Translations under genes and position numbers: made by a program
Notes under the pieces: generated by a model
What the model saw: the letters and a program-made list of their open reading frames with translations, nothing else
Databases searched by the model: none
What the model was told of the DNA's origin: nothing
Shown here: positions 1,200 to 13,294 of the stretch, piece after piece
Position numbering within the stretch: position 1 is the stretch's first letter
Layout: every line of letters starts with the position of its first letter
Origin: the human T2T-CHM13v2.0 reference genome, Homo sapiens
Direction: 5' to 3' (one strand)
Length of the DNA: 64,000 nt
Assembly (NCBI RefSeq): GCF_009914755.1
Contig: NC_060941.1

Positions 1200-1249
1200 T
1201 CTTGTGATCTGGGCTCCCAAATTAGAAGGATTTGCTTTCAATACATCAG
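1200..1249 (-). other. Candidate 50-nt cassette exon (ADVLKANPSNLGAQITR when entered in phase 1) in intron 6
   Basis: About 79-nt AG-free, U-rich tract ending ...acattttcag; donor AGA|gtgagt. Confidence 0.65.
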
Positions 1250-1640
1250 CTGAAAATGTCACATCACAAAGAAAAAAAAGTAAAAAATAAAACAAGAGTG
1301 GAAGAGAAAAAAAAAATAAAGCAAGCATTACTACACGAGCTCTCTTAGTGAATCTGTAAACTATTATACTGAACAATCAGGGACAAAGCCATCAACTCTA
1401 AAAGGGCTAGGGAGAAGGGAAGCACCTGTACAACATATATATGTGTACATACACACAGACTGACACAGTAATCCCACCTAGAAAAATGGAACTACCTGTA
1501 TTTCTTCCAGAAAAATGGTTCCAGAACTTTGGAAAAGACCATTATGGTATTAAAAAGCAGTCCTGTTTCCATTAGCCCTTATTATGGGGGAAGTTCAAGT
1601 AATGAACAGCTGGCAAAACTGTTAGTGCCCATAATTAAGA

Positions 1641-2465
1641 TTTTTTTTTTTTTTTTTGAGATGGAGTCTCACTCTGTTGCCCAGGCTGGAGTGCAGTGGC
1701 ACAATCTTGGCTCACTGCAGCCTCCGCCTCCCAGGTTTAAGAGATTCTCATGCGTTAGCCTCCCAAGTAGCTGGGATTACAGGCGTGAACCCCTATGCTT
1801 GGCTAATTTTTATATTTTTAGTAGAGACGAGGTTTCACCATGTTGGCCAGGGTGGTCTCAAACTCCTGGTCTCAAGTGATCTACCTGCCTCGGCCTCCCA
1901 AAGTGCTGGGATTAAAGGCATGAGATACCACACCCAGCCCACAATTAAGATTTTTATAAAACCACTTCAAGATGAAGGATCAACTATTTTAAATAAATAC
2001 GAATTCTAATTTCTTCCTCCTGAGGGGAATGGGGCAGAAAGAAAAGGCTTATCAGGCCTATTATATGATTACTTTTGGCCACAAACCTAGTTTTTTCTTC
2101 CCCAAACACGTAACAGGCTCTCTAACCAAGATTTAGATAGAATATAATGTTCTTCTCACATCTGCCATTTTCTCTTTTTTTTTTGAGATGGAGTTTTATT
2201 CTGTCGCCCAGGCTGGAGTGCAGTGGTGTGTGATCTTGGCTCACTGCAACCTCTGCCTCCCGGGTCCAAGCAATTCTCCTGCCTTAGCCTCCCGAGTAGC
2301 TGGGACTACAGGTGCCTGTCACCACACCCGGCTGATTTTTTATATTTTTAGTAGAGATGAAGTTTCATTTTCTTGGCCAGGCTAGTCTTCAATTCCTGAC
2401 CTCAGGTGATCCGCCCGCCTCGGCTTCCCAAAGTGATGGGATTACAGGCATAAGCCACTGTGTCC
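1641..2465 (-). mobile_element. Two Alu elements (~1641-1941, ~2167-2465)
   Basis: Poly-T plus antisense Alu consensus; first copy flanked by aattaagattttt duplication. Confidence 0.95.
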
Positions 2466-3032
2466 ATATACATTATGGCCTGCCATCTTCTCTCTAGCCA
2501 CCTGCTAAGACTGGAAAATTTCCCCATGCCATTTCCTCCCCTCTTACAAATATTTCACTACTTTTAGGAAGCATTTTTCAAACTACATGACATTGTCCAA
2601 AAGAACAATCATTTTATCAAAGTATGGAGTCCCCAGGGTGAGTCAAGATTAGGCTTTCCATTCAGCAGCCACTCTGTACAACCTTGAAGATGAAGGAACA
2701 GGACCATGCCCACATCATGCTGAAGACATCCTATCTCAAGTTCCTACCACAGGAATATGGTTGGAGGTAGATACGGAAGAAGATGGGATGAAGCAATAAA
2801 ACGAATCTAAATTGCAGGCTCCCTCTGGGCAAACCTATCCTAAGAATACCCTATAAGGCTTAGGAAGGCTCCCAGTATCACATTTACAAACTTTACAGTC
2901 AAGTCTGCAATCTCAAAAGCAGAATTGAGAACCCCAGAATTCTCACCCCAACCTTGAGACAGGACTCAGCAAACCATCTCAAACTGAGTATGTATACTTG
3001 TGGTTTCTCTCAGATGAGGACATTCTGGCGAC

Positions 3033-9288: not shown

Positions 9289-9519
9289 CAGGTTGAGTAT
9301 CCCGTATCTGAAATACTTAGAACTGGAAGTGTTTTAGATATTGGGCTTTTTTACATTTTAGAATATTTGCATTGTATATTTACTGCTTGAGCATCCCAAA
9401 TCTGAAAACCCAAAATGCTCCAATAAACACTTCCTTTGAGAGTCATGTTGGCATTCAAAAACTTTCAGATTTTGAAACATTTTGGATTTTAATTTTTTGA
9501 ATTTGGGATGCTCAATCTG
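9289..9519. mobile_element. Tigger4a/MER46-like non-autonomous DNA transposon
   Basis: Terminal inverted repeats CAGGTTGAGTATCCC...GGGATGCTCAATCTG flanked by TA; about 230 bp. Confidence 0.85.
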
Positions 9520-12500
9520 TATTTACATAGCACTCCAAGAAGATATCTGGGGACAAAGATTTGCCCCATAGGTAAAATCTGAAGGCGGATAAGTCATAAG
9601 AGCTGCCTGGGTCCAAAGCAAATGGCACAACAACAACCCAGTTCAGAGCTCTTTACAGTACTGTCACTAAAGAACTTATTACTTAGGTTGCTTTAACTTT
9701 TCTGACTACAATAGAACAAAGAGTCTAATCCCAGCATCTCTACCACAGTGCATCACTGTGATAAATTAAGTGTAAGGGGCAGAAAGGTTGAAACTGTAGA
9801 ACAAAAGTAAGGCAGAATCATTTTTAGTCAACTGGGATTGAGTGCCAAAATGAAGAACAGTTAGAAATACATAACAAGAGAATGCCTGGTTTACCCTGGC
9901 AACATTAGGTCCTGAAGTGTCTGTTTTGAGGGTTACCCCTAATCACAAAAGCAGACAGCTCCCCTAAGCAGAAGGGGATTTTTTCAACAGTTTTGTTGTT
10001 TTTGAGACGGAGTCTCACTCTGTTGCCCAGGCTGGAGTGTAGCGGTACTATATTGGCTCACTGCAACCTCTGTCTTCTGGGTTCAAGCGATCCTCCTGCC
10101 TCAGCCTCCGAGCAGCTAGGATTACAGGCGTGTGCCACCACGCCCAGCTAATTTTTTTTTGTATTTTTAGTACAGATGGGGTTTCATTTCACCATGTTGG
10201 CCAGGCTGGTCTCGAACTTCTCACCTCACGTGATCCATCCACCTCGGCCTCCCAAAATGCCGGGAATACAGGCGTGAGCCACCATGCCTGGCCTTCAGCA
10301 GATTTTTTTTTAAGGTTAGCTATGTCGTGATTGCTGGGTATAATAAGTTTACTCCCAACATAAGCAGAGGGGAATGAATACATAAGACTTAACAGGTGAA
10401 AAGGCATGAAACATGCTAAATTTTTGGAAGACTGGCCAAATGATGTCAATTTTCTTATTAAGCAAAACAGACCCCAAGAAAATGGTATGAACAGTGGTAT
10501 AGAATACCACTGAACCCAACATTTTCACCTCTCTGCTATAGGTTATTAAAATAAAACTACAACATGTTCAAGTGCTGAGATGCACTCCTTTCTTCAAACC
10601 TGTGTTGTTTCTTAAAGCATAATCCCTGAAGAGAGCTGTGCTGTTTAAGTAATACATGTTATTGGGTAATGAAACAGTCAACTAAGAATAAGTAATCCTG
10701 TCAAAAAGCAGTTGCAAACAATTTAGACAAAGTTAATTAAATCATGTATTAACAGATTATATCCTGTACAAATCAGAATACAGTCACTGGTGGCTGCTAG
10801 AGGCTTCATCTGTTTTAGTTCTGCTATTTAAAGCTCAGGGAACTACTGTTTTTGTTCACAACTGAAACAGACCTTGGAATTAAATAAGACTTTAGTCCTT
10901 TTAGAAAATGTAAAAAGTATAGGAGTTTTCATACTACAGGTATTTTAGCAGAAAGAAGAGGGAGGCTAAAAGCATATTCCTCTGACTGAGATACTGAATC
11001 CTACAGTTAAAGGAATTTTTTTTTTTTTGAGACAGGGCCTTGCTCAATATATTACCCAGGCTTGAGTGCAGTGGCACAATCTTGGCTCACTGCAATGTCC
11101 ACCTCCTGGGCTCAAATGATTCTCCTGAGGAAAACTCTAAATTTCTGTTCCTTGGTAATGTTATGTTACTGCGTAATGAAACCGTCAAGTGTCAAGTAAG
11201 AGTAAGTAATCTTGTCAAAAAGCAGATGCAAACAGTTTAGACAAGGTCAATCCTGTCAAAAAGCAGTTGCAAACAGTTTAGACAAAGTTAACTAAATCAT
11301 GTATTAATAGACTCAGCCCCTCTAGCAGCTGGGACCACAGGCAACTGCCATCACATCCAGCTAATTTTTGGGGGCATTTTTTGTAGAGACCGGGTTTTGC
11401 CATGTTGCCCAGACTGGTCTCGAACTTTTGGGCTCAAGTGATCTGCCCGCCTGAGTCTCCTAAAGTGCTGGGATTACAGGTATGAGCCACCACGCTTGGC
11501 CTAAAGAATTTCTGAAGATGCTTTACAGTACCAGATTTTGATAATCTGGATCAGACTACCAGAGACTGAAATCGCAAGGAAGTTGGTCCCAACACTATTA
11601 GCAAGGAGGCAGCTTTTCAATGTGCCAGTTCCCCAGTATCAGTCAGAAGCCACGGGAACCTGTGTGGGAAGGAAGGAAAAGCATAGGCCTGAGTCACAAA
11701 TTCAAATGTTTACAGGAGTTTGGCAGGTAACATAATGAGTCACACAGATTGGTGTAAGAGAAAAGATGAAGTGGAGATCACAGCTAGTTGCAGAATGAGC
11801 AAAGAGATGGCAACTGTTCAGCTTTAGTCAACTGTTATGTTGAAATGTAGGCCCAATGTTGTCTGATAATTTTAATTTTTCAAGATAAGCCAAAGCCTAA
11901 ATTATGTAAAATTGAATTTTTAAAATTTGGGAATCAACTGAAATTAAAAAGGGAAAAACTAATAATGTGAAGGCCAGATAAAATATATCTATGAGATAAT
12001 TTGTGACCTCTCTAGTTTATGTACTAGGAGGACCTTTAGTGGCACAAACAAGAGGCTAAGATTGGAAGAAAAATCCTGAGTAGGTAACAAGGTACAAAGG
12101 AAGCAGCCAAAAAGAGAGAAAGAGAGAGAGAGAAGAAAAGAAAAAGAGGAAGAAAGGAAGGGAGGAAGGGAGGGAGGGAAGGAGGATTGACTATAAAGGT
12201 GGTGCTGCTATTAATTAATTTACTTTTGGGAAACAATATTCTTTGGAGTTTGAATTTTAGGCCTCTTGAAATGCTAAAGAAAATGATTCTACTGTCATAT
12301 CCATCAGCAGACAAATTTTTTAAAGATATGCAAAATAATTAAGGAGGCAAGGACGTAGGGATAGAAAAATCTGTAGTATCAAATTTGTCTGTAACTTACA
12401 CTAAGCCAACAAAGGTAGGAGATGATCAGTGCTAATGTCTTTTTTTTTTTTTTTTGAGATGGAGTCTTGCTCTGTCGCCCAGGCTGGAGTGCAGTGGCAT

Positions 12501-13257
12501 GATCTTGGCTCACTGCAACTTCCACCTCCCGGATTCAGGCAATTCTCCTGCCTCAGCCTCCCCAGTAGCTGGGACTACAGGCACGTGCTGCCACGCCCGG
12601 CTTTTTTGTATTTTTAGTAGAGAGGGGTTTTCACCATGTTAGCCAGGATGGTCTCGATCTCCTGACCTTGTGATCCGCCAGCCTCGGCCTCCCAAAGTGC
12701 TGGGATTACAGGCGTGAGCCACCGCGCCCGGCTAGTCAGTGCTAATGTCTATTGAGCATTCAGGTGTTATCAGAATTAACTCATGTAAAAAGGAATCATA
12801 TATTGGATTTCTTCAGAAATGGAAAGGCCTACTCTTAGAGATTTCAAAATGTATTAACATCGATCACTTGAAAACTAGGGTTAAACTACTGAAAAGAGCC
12901 AAAATACTTAATCAGCTTCTGTATCTCTGAAGATCAAGCTGGGTCTTAATATTTTTGTGTTAACAACTCTTCGTAAAATCTTGGAAAACCTGAGAAAAAC
13001 TAGTGAATATAAAGAGGCACATAACACCCCCGCATCCTGTCAGGAAAAAAACAACTCAAACCTTGAATGAGGGTGACCATATAGCTCCTTTTGGAGAGAT
13101 TATTTGTGCTTATTAAAGAGAAGGGTATGTTTAGGATCCTGCCTCTACTATAGTTTACTACTAACGTAATACATTATTTCTCTGAAAAATATTAATGGTG
13201 AAAATCTGATAGAAGATGCAAACTAGGGATTGCTAATACAGGGTTGAAAGTACTTAC

Positions 13258-13294
13258 CTATTATCTCAGATTCATAATAATCCTGTGTGCCTTC
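13258..13294 (-). other. Candidate 37-nt cassette exon (EGTQDYYESEII + 1 nt) in intron 6
   Basis: ctgtcttgtcttccag|GAAGGC...ATAATAG|gtaagta. Consensus donor; open in the frame of exon 6. Confidence 0.7.

What the first reader, a model, noticed from the sequence alone, without database searches (positions are those of the whole stretch)
1200..13294. Frame-coupled exon pair 12 kb apart (37 nt + 50 nt) inserting 29 aa right after the zinc finger
Seen: the 37-nt exon at 13258-13294 (consensus donor) ends in phase 1. The 50-nt exon at 1200-1249 gives CTG ATG TAT TGA (immediate stop) if joined directly to exon 6. Together they total 87 nt and read without a stop: HAHKQ-EGTQDYYESEII-ADVLKANPSNLGAQITR-RLKDLKQ. 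Inference: each alone is a frameshift or poison exon, while both yield a longer protein. This would be an AND-gate on an isoform of a G-patch splicing factor (G-patch proteins are established DEAH-helicase/DHX15 activators).
Basis: partly seen in the sequence, partly recalled or inferred. Interest (0 to 1): 0.85.

Follow-up and report, generated by a model that had tools for sequence, protein, structure and literature searches.

The report
Frame-compensating GPATCH8 exon pair
Two tiny optional exons of the human splicing-factor gene GPATCH8, 12 kb apart, keep the reading frame only when used together and then add 29 conserved amino acids after the zinc finger; this is a real but ordinary example of a known kind of linked exon pair.

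Summary
On the minus strand, a 37-nt exon (13258-13294) and a 50-nt exon (1200-1249) lie in the 18.3-kb intron after the GPATCH8 zinc-finger exon. Spliced in silico, both together give 1531 aa with a 29-aa insert after Q164. The 37-nt exon alone stops at codon 198, and the 50-nt exon alone stops at codon 168. Both stops lie more than 55 nt before the last junction.

RefSeq already has the pair: 8 of 15 mRNAs carry both exons, none carries only one, and all 8 are Gnomon models.

The same-length insert sits at the same site in 7 of 120 listed ortholog cluster representatives: six placental mammals and Alligator sinensis (23 of 29 residues identical).

The kind is in print: linked adjacent cassette exons with combinatorial frame preservation, and the TBRG4 "mutually inclusive" exons. 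No paper found describes this pair.

The "AND-gate" is correct as coding logic. As regulation it is untested: no reads, no NMD data, no nucleotide-level conservation and no structure prediction were available. Verdict: a new member of a known kind, of moderate to low interest.

The parts
13258..13294 (-). 37-nt cassette exon A. It enters in phase 0 after codon 164 and leaves in phase 1, and encodes the first 12 residues plus one base of the insert.
   Evidence: Coding in 8 Gnomon XM models. Single copy in the genome. Not in a masked repeat. Only the used frame is open.
1200..1249 (-). 50-nt cassette exon B. It supplies two bases to finish the split codon and then 16 codons. Read in phase 0 (exon A skipped) it gives a stop at its fourth codon.
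   Evidence: Single copy. Not in a masked repeat. The part of the insert it encodes is 17 of 17 identical in six mammals and 15 of 17 in alligator.
13295..13317 (-). Acceptor region of exon A: a short pyrimidine tract ending in cag, with the nearest upstream AG at -23.
13250..13257 (-). Donor of exon A, intron side gtaagtac. With the exon's final AG it matches the AG|GTAAGT consensus (consensus recalled).
1250..1332 (-). 83-nt AG-free zone upstream of exon B, with 82% pyrimidine in the last 60 nt. I infer a distant branch point.
1192..1199 (-). Donor of exon B, intron side gtgagttt, followed by U-rich sequence and a short GU run.
1250..13257 (-). 12,008-nt intron between the two cassette exons. 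It holds repeats and the 7SL pseudogene RN7SL258P.
   Evidence: Its two ends are no more complementary than shuffles (65 of 100 shuffles reached the observed energy).
18332..18475 (-). Constitutive 144-nt exon encoding the C2H2 finger (C138, C141, H154, H160). It ends exactly at codon 164.
   Evidence: Single copy, no retrocopy found.
1..33 (-). First 33 nt of the constitutive 131-nt exon that follows; the rest lies outside the window. The stop of the 37-only frame lies in this exon.

Best explanation
The two exons are a conserved, linked pair of very short cassette exons of GPATCH8.

By default both are skipped, and the zinc-finger exon joins the 131-nt exon directly. When both are spliced in, the +1 shift of the 37-nt exon is cancelled by the +2 shift of the 50-nt exon. 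The protein then gains 29 residues between the C2H2 finger and the charged helical stretch that follows.

A transcript that takes up only one exon has a premature stop upstream of the last exon junction. By the 50-55-nt rule it should be removed by nonsense-mediated decay, so stable mRNA is expected to be both-or-none.

Shown: the frames, the stops, the splice-site sequences, the annotation and the protein-level conservation. Inferred: skipping as the default, NMD of the single-inclusion forms, any co-regulation of the two exons, and any effect of the insert on finger or helix function.
For: - Frames and stops. The stops lie 66 and 169 nt before the last junction.
- Of 15 RefSeq mRNAs, 8 carry both exons as coding, 0 carry one and 7 carry neither.
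- A 29-aa insert at the same site is present in 7 of 120 listed ortholog representatives: cat, pilot whale, manatee, bat, tenrec, marmot and Alligator sinensis. Searches seeded on the insert found the same 7 of 7 named candidates.
- Insert identity to cat is 27-29 of 29 in the five other mammals and 23 of 29 in alligator, with length kept. That is close to the 70 of 90 seen in the next 90 residues.
- Only the used frame is open in each exon.
- Both exons are single copy and outside masked repeats.
- The donor of the 37-nt exon is AG|gtaagt.
- The kind is described in passages of PMC2432081 and of preprint 10.1101/464404 on TBRG4.
Against: - No transcript evidence could be examined. All 8 human models with the pair are Gnomon predictions, and 0 of 6 curated NM transcripts, including the 'select' one, hold either exon.
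- Gnomon models in other species may lean on cross-species protein evidence, although the letters come from each species' own genome.
- 105 of the 120 listed representatives join HAHKQ directly to RLKDLK. That includes every bird, squamate, amphibian, shark and ray-finned fish representative and the one marsupial. Clustering at 90% identity hides isoforms, so this is weak evidence of absence.
- Protein identity cannot separate coding constraint from nucleotide-level constraint on regulatory exons.
- Frame compensation alone arises by chance in 4-14% of pseudo-exon pairs in this intron.
Confidence: 0.7

Rival explanations
1. The two exons are mainly unproductive-splicing (poison) exons that tune GPATCH8 dose through NMD, as in other splicing-factor genes. 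Under this reading the open joint frame is a by-product of nucleotide-level conservation, and the 1531-aa protein is rare or has no function.
For: - Each exon alone gives a premature stop.
- GPATCH8 has other annotated exons with in-frame stops at 61087-61104/61192 and 32656-32700.
- Chapman et al. report ultraconserved poison exons in Gpatch8 (passages).
- No curated transcript carries the pair.
Against: - Insert length stays at exactly 29 aa and the frame stays open through six residue changes between mammals and alligator.
- Only the used frame is open in each exon.
- A dose switch needs one poison exon, not a compensating pair.

None of these three points is decisive.
Confidence: 0.15
2. 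Splicing noise or an annotation artefact: rare chance use of good-looking pseudo-exons, propagated by the prediction pipeline.
For: - Only Gnomon models carry the pair.
- Frame-compensating pseudo-exon pairs do occur by chance: 2 of 14 or 2 of 53.
- No paper was found on the pair.
Against: - The same insert is encoded in the genomes of six placental mammals from three superorders and of a crocodilian. The part encoded by the 50-nt exon is invariant in the mammals.
- The bat model has a differently styled name, 'isoform 3-T5'.
- Both exons are unique, non-repeat sequence.
Confidence: 0.1
3. Single-inclusion transcripts partly escape NMD and make short proteins of 197 or 167 aa. These would keep the G-patch and the finger but lack the long C-terminal part, and could compete for DHX15.
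For: - The truncated reading frames keep residues 1-164, which include the G-patch (41-82) and the finger.
- The 37-only stop is only 66 nt from the last junction, near the limit of the 50-55-nt rule.
Against: No evidence that such mRNAs or proteins exist. Both stops formally meet the NMD rule.
Confidence: 0.05

Closest known systems
Linked ('LNK') adjacent cassette exon pairs with combinatorial reading-frame preservation (Peng et al. 2008, PMC2432081; passages read)
   Same: Two neighbouring cassette exons are included or skipped together, and the frame is kept by the sum of their lengths rather than by each length. That paper reports positively correlated pairs as mostly evolutionarily old.
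   Different: That paper says most LNK pairs are major-form exons with high inclusion. Here all six curated transcripts skip both exons. Correlated inclusion on single molecules was not tested here.
TBRG4 exons 4 and 5, 'mutually inclusive' (preprint 10.1101/464404, passages read; also named in PMC10842930)
   Same: Either both exons are in or both are out, because each alone gives a frameshift and NMD. The coding logic is exactly the same.
   Different: The TBRG4 exons are 172 and 158 nt and resemble each other, and that paper discusses them as an autoregulatory switch. The GPATCH8 exons are 37 and 50 nt, 12 kb apart and not evidently alike. No regulator is known.
Poison exons of splicing-factor genes, including the two reported in Gpatch8 itself (Chapman et al. 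2018, PMC6811834, passages read)
   Same: Taken singly, each exon brings a premature stop into a splicing-factor mRNA.
   Different: Chapman's two exons flank the G-patch exon. They fit the annotated exons at 61087-61104/61192 and 32656-32700, which carry in-frame stops, and not the pair studied here. Their supplementary figure S1C was not visible. The pair studied here is coding when both exons are used.
Neural microexon programme (recalled from general knowledge, not from a call)
   Same: The exons are very short (37 and 50 nt), have good splice sites, are skipped by default, and are conserved at the protein level.
   Different: Microexons are typically each a multiple of three. The nearest UGC lies at -39 and -74 from the two acceptors, not next to them, and there is no GCATG within 500 nt. 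Tissue pattern is unknown.

Membership tests
Linked / mutually inclusive cassette exon pair with compensating frames | Two adjacent exons, both alternative, with no constitutive exon between them | tested here: met
   Annotation level only: 8 of 15 RefSeq mRNAs hold both and 7 hold neither. The exons are neighbours in every model that holds them.
Linked / mutually inclusive cassette exon pair with compensating frames | Neither length is a multiple of 3; the sum is a multiple of 3 and the joint frame is open | tested here: met
   37 + 50 = 87 nt, giving 29 codons with no stop.
Linked / mutually inclusive cassette exon pair with compensating frames | Single inclusion gives a premature stop more than 50-55 nt before the last exon junction | tested here: met
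   66 nt (37-nt exon alone) and 169 nt (50-nt exon alone). This is in silico only.
Linked / mutually inclusive cassette exon pair with compensating frames | Positive correlation of inclusion on the same RNA molecules | not testable with these tools
   No reads, ESTs or long-read data were available. 0 of 15 models hold one exon alone, but Gnomon favours open frames.
Poison exon (alternative splicing coupled to NMD) | Inclusion introduces a premature stop | tested here: inconclusive
   True for each exon alone, false for both together.
Poison exon (alternative splicing coupled to NMD) | The isoform rises when NMD is blocked, and the exon is conserved at nucleotide level beyond coding need | not testable with these tools
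   No expression data and no vertebrate genome alignments were available.
RBFOX-regulated exon | (U)GCAUG near the exon | tested here: not met
   0 GCATG within 500 nt on either side of either exon or inside them. The window background is 1.0 per kb.
SRRM4-type neural microexon (definition recalled) | Length at most 27 nt (strict) or 51 nt (broad), UGC close to the acceptor, neural inclusion | tested here: inconclusive
   Lengths of 37 and 50 nt fit only the broad limit. The nearest upstream UGC lies at -39 and -74. Tissue pattern is not testable.
G-patch protein (host gene) | G-patch domain | tested here: met
   Pfam PF01585, 50.5-51.1 bits against a cutoff of 22, residues 41-82, in the orthologues P0006, P0001 and P0053. 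DHX15 partnership comes from passages of the papers read.

The most novel reading that the evidence does not exclude
The pair is a conserved three-state splicing device in a DHX15 cofactor.

The two microexons, 12 kb apart, would respond to different signals. Neither gives the standard protein. Exactly one sends the mRNA to decay and so lowers GPATCH8 dose. Both give an isoform whose 29-residue spacer uncouples the RNA-binding-type zinc finger from the helix behind it, which would change where GPATCH8 brings DHX15 on the spliceosome.

If the inclusion probabilities p1 and p2 are independent, the productive fraction is (1-p1)(1-p2)+p1p2. Isoform choice and dose would then be tied together, and this would have been kept since the amniote ancestor.
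Probability: 0.15. Interest if true: 0.6.

Novelty: new member of a known kind. Interest (0 to 1): 0.3.

Why it matters
GPATCH8 is reported to modulate alternative splicing with DHX15 and to shape the mis-splicing caused by mutant SF3B1. I know this only from reviews that cite Benbarche et al. 2024.

An insert conserved from mammals to a crocodilian, placed exactly between the protein's only zinc finger and the following helix, is an unstudied isoform of that factor. If it is tissue-restricted, it could change the protein's targets. It would also matter for anyone designing GPATCH8 constructs, antibodies or splice-switching oligonucleotides.

As a general phenomenon it adds one clean, small example to a known class. 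It does not open a new question.

Tried and rejected
- **Long-range RNA pairing that could bring the two exons together.** I ran RNAduplex on the first and last 300 nt of the 12-kb intron. The observed energy was -82.9 against a shuffle mean of -85.4, and 65 of 100 shuffles reached it. Of three other flank combinations, two were also null (54 and 68 of 100). The flanks upstream of both exons gave -111.2 against -95.9 (1 of 100). I put this down to an A-run upstream of the 37-nt exon pairing with the U-tracts upstream of the 50-nt exon, because the block shuffle does not keep runs. I did not follow it further.
- **Local folds around each exon.** z = -0.15 and -1.14, which is unremarkable.
- **Rfam over 1-19000.** Only two 7SL-type hits.
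- **Repeat or paralogue origin.** Each exon with its flanks matches only itself in the genome. Neither lies in a masked repeat.
- **Retrocopy as a fossil of the isoform.** The zinc-finger exon has no second copy.
- **Regulator motifs.** No GCATG within 500 nt. Other short motifs (UGC, YGCY, UCUU, U-runs) are too common to interpret, so I make no claim from them.
- **Solved structures.** The best match to the finger-plus-helix stretch is the yeast Snu23 finger at E = 0.0062, which is too weak to build on.
- **Identity with Chapman's poison exons.** Rejected. Those flank the G-patch exon.
- **Depth of conservation beyond amniotes.** Not resolved.
- **PMC13247117 (non-triplet splicing).** My search terms hit only its reference list.
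- **Supplementary files.** These were closed. Supplementary figure S1C of PMC6811834 and the exon tables of the long-read papers may bear on this pair.

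
Full report
**What is there.** GPATCH8 runs on the minus strand across the whole window.
- After the 144-nt exon that encodes the C2H2 finger (18332-18475, ending exactly at codon 164), the curated transcripts splice over 18,298 nt to the 131-nt exon, whose first 33 nt are window 33-1.
- Two short annotated exons lie inside that intron: 13258-13294 (37 nt) and 1200-1249 (50 nt). They split it into introns of 5,037, 12,008 and 1,166 nt.
- The 37-nt exon follows a short pyrimidine tract ending in cag, and its donor is TAG|gtaagtac.
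- The 50-nt exon follows an 83-nt AG-free zone that is 82% pyrimidine in its last 60 nt. Its donor is AGA|gtgagttt.

**Check of the frames.** I spliced the annotated exons in a script from the window and from loci fetched out of the same genome.
- The canonical mRNA encodes 1502 aa.
- With both exons it encodes 1531 aa.
- The inserted residues are identical to residues 165-193 of the cat orthologue P0006, EGTQDYYESEIIADVLKANPSNLGAQITR, placed between HAHKQ and RLKDLKQ.
- The 37-nt exon alone shifts the frame and stops at codon 198, in the next exon.
- The 50-nt exon alone reads three codons and stops at codon 168.
- The two stops lie 66 and 169 nt upstream of the last exon junction. By the 50-55-nt rule (established knowledge) both single-inclusion mRNAs are NMD candidates.
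- In each exon only the used frame is free of stops.

**Is it more than chance?** Not from the pattern alone.
- With a loose acceptor pattern (YAG plus at least 60% or 55% pyrimidine) and a GTRAG donor, the same intron holds 6 or 11 pseudo-microexons of 20-60 nt.
- 2 of 14, or 2 of 53, ordered pairs compensate frame without a stop. One is the annotated pair. The other joins the 37-nt exon to a 26-nt stretch inside a masked repeat.

The case therefore rests on annotation and conservation.

**Annotation.**
- Of the 15 RefSeq GPATCH8 mRNAs, 8 hold both exons as coding, 0 hold only one and 7 hold neither.
- All 8 are Gnomon XM models. The 6 curated NM transcripts, including the 'select' one, skip both.
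- Only XM_054315563.1 joins the pair to the first ATG (1531 aa). The other seven start at a downstream ATG (1453 aa).

The pair is therefore already in a public annotation, though only as a prediction. A predictor that prefers open frames cannot prove coupling.

**Conservation.**
- A search with the translated last exon gave 446 proteins at E <= 1e-10 among 2,308 candidates. The best 120 cluster representatives were listed, and 5,692 candidates of unnamed source were left out by the tool.
- Of those 120, 105 join HAHKQ directly to the RLK(D/E)L motif. Seven lack the finger region, and one sturgeon model reads on into other sequence.
- The remaining 7 carry a 29-residue insert at exactly this site: cat, pilot whale, manatee, a bat, tenrec, marmot and Alligator sinensis.
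- Two further searches, seeded on 40 residues around the insert of cat and of alligator, found the same seven and nothing else. That was 7 of 7 named candidates; 2 of unnamed source were left out.
- Against cat, the five other mammals keep 27-29 of 29 residues, and the part from the 50-nt exon is 17 of 17 in all of them.
- The alligator insert, EGTRDYCESGTIADVLKANPSNFGVQITR in P0053, keeps 23 of 29 (8 of 12 and 15 of 17) and the same length. That compares with 78 of 78 on the finger side and 70 of 90 in the next 90 residues.
- Both exons with their flanks are single copy in the human genome and outside masked repeats.

I conclude that both exons existed, with a joint open frame, in the common ancestor of mammals and crocodilians. 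No bird, squamate, amphibian, shark or ray-finned fish representative, and not the one marsupial listed, shows the insert. With clustering at 90% identity and one model per cluster, that absence says little.

**Where the insert falls.**
- Pfam places the G-patch at 41-82 (about 51 bits, cutoff 22).
- A zf-C2H2_jaz match covers 136-163 (22.1 bits, just below the 22.6 cutoff). The C-x2-C-x12-H-x5-H ligands are visible in the sequence.
- The insert begins at 165.
- A weak SF3a60/Prp9 C-terminal match runs from 129 to 194 in the form without the insert, and stops at 163 in the form with it (below cutoff).
- The best solved relative of the finger-plus-helix stretch is the yeast Snu23 finger, at E = 0.0062.

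These hints fit a spliceosomal, RNA-duplex-type finger followed by a helix, with the insert acting as a spacer between them. This is inference. The structure predictor was closed, so I have no model.

**How it most likely works.**
- I read this as a linked pair of very short cassette exons, skipped by default.
- Joint use yields an in-frame isoform. Single use yields an NMD substrate, so stable mRNA appears as both-or-none.
- Whether the spliceosome couples the two choices, or NMD merely filters independent choices, cannot be told here.
- I found no RNA pairing between the ends of the 12-kb intron beyond shuffles (65 of 100 shuffles reached the observed value).
- Local folding was unremarkable (z = -0.15 and -1.14).
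- There is no RBFOX motif within 500 nt of either exon.
- The long AG-free pyrimidine zone before the 50-nt exon suggests a distant branch point and regulation through the tract. That is only a lead.

**Comparison with what is known.**
- Peng et al. 2008 (PMC2432081, passages read) sorted adjacent cassette exon pairs by correlation. Positively linked pairs were mostly old and enriched for length sums that are multiples of three, which they called combinatorial reading-frame preservation.
- The preprint 10.1101/464404 (two passages read) calls TBRG4 exons 4 and 5 'mutually inclusive', because each alone causes a frameshift and NMD.
- A long-read study reports 3,975 mutually inclusive exons among 4,137 co-regulated exon pairs in 541 genes (PMC10842930, passages read).
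- The GPATCH8 pair fits this kind on every feature I could test. The feature I could not test is co-occurrence on single molecules.
- Chapman et al. 2018 (PMC6811834, passages read; retold in PMC8652244, one passage) describe two ultraconserved poison exons in Gpatch8 that flank the G-patch exon.
- Those fit the annotated exons at 61087-61104/61192 and 32656-32700, which I confirmed carry in-frame stops. They do not fit the pair studied here. Their supplementary figure was not visible to me.
- No paper was found that mentions the insert peptide (0 papers) or this exon pair. I ran five searches. One search found 149 papers naming GPATCH8, of which I saw the first 30 in the listing and read passages of four of those 30. 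I also read a passage of one further GPATCH8 paper listed (PMC8652244).
- GPATCH8 as a DHX15 cofactor and modulator of mutant-SF3B1 mis-splicing comes from passages of a 2026 preprint and two reviews. The primary paper is not held.

**Verdict.**
- 'AND-gate' as a regulatory device is an untested reading.
- The pair is a new, unstudied member of a known kind. It is already present in predicted gene models and conserved across amniotes at the protein level.
- Interest is moderate to low. It would rise if long reads and NMD inhibition showed that the two exons respond to different signals, or if the insert changed how GPATCH8 works with DHX15.

Noticed in passing
window 61087-61104 / 61087-61192 and 32656-32700, minus strand: Annotated alternative exons of 18 or 106 nt and of 45 nt carry in-frame stops (codons 44 or 41, and 67). 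They flank the 73-nt G-patch exon at 58462-58534. [quoted passage not shown] 2018. That paper says RBFOX sites flank them, but no GCATG lies within 500 nt of either in human.
   Followed up: partly
window 3041-3341 and 6549-6665, minus strand: A full-length Rfam Metazoa_SRP match (176.8 bits) corresponds to the annotated 7SL pseudogene RN7SL258P. A second, 117-nt match (77.3 bits) lies inside a masked repeat. Both are in the 12-kb intron between the two cassette exons.
   Followed up: no
window 5814-5839, minus strand: A 26-nt pseudo-exon with loose splice-site patterns, inside masked repeat 5779-6231, would also restore the frame after the 37-nt exon. It is not annotated.
   Followed up: no
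window 13295-13594 versus 1250-1549, minus strand: The flanks upstream of the two exons pair better than block shuffles (-111.2 against a mean of -95.9; 1 of 100 shuffles reached the observed value). This is probably an A-run pairing with U-tracts, which the shuffle control does not preserve.
   Followed up: no
window 15166-16139: RefSeq lists an H3K27ac-H3K4me1 hESC enhancer element in the intron between the zinc-finger exon and the 37-nt exon.
   Followed up: no
protein P0094 (Alligator mississippiensis, 2127 aa): It is named 'integrin alpha-V isoform A' but carries a G-patch domain and the GPATCH8 finger-to-helix junction. It is most likely a fused gene model.
   Followed up: no
protein P0109 (Acipenser sinensis, 1913 aa, flagged UNVERIFIED_CONTAM): The model reads on from HAHKQ into unrelated sequence instead of the RLK motif, as if the intron at this junction were retained or mis-called.
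   Followed up: no
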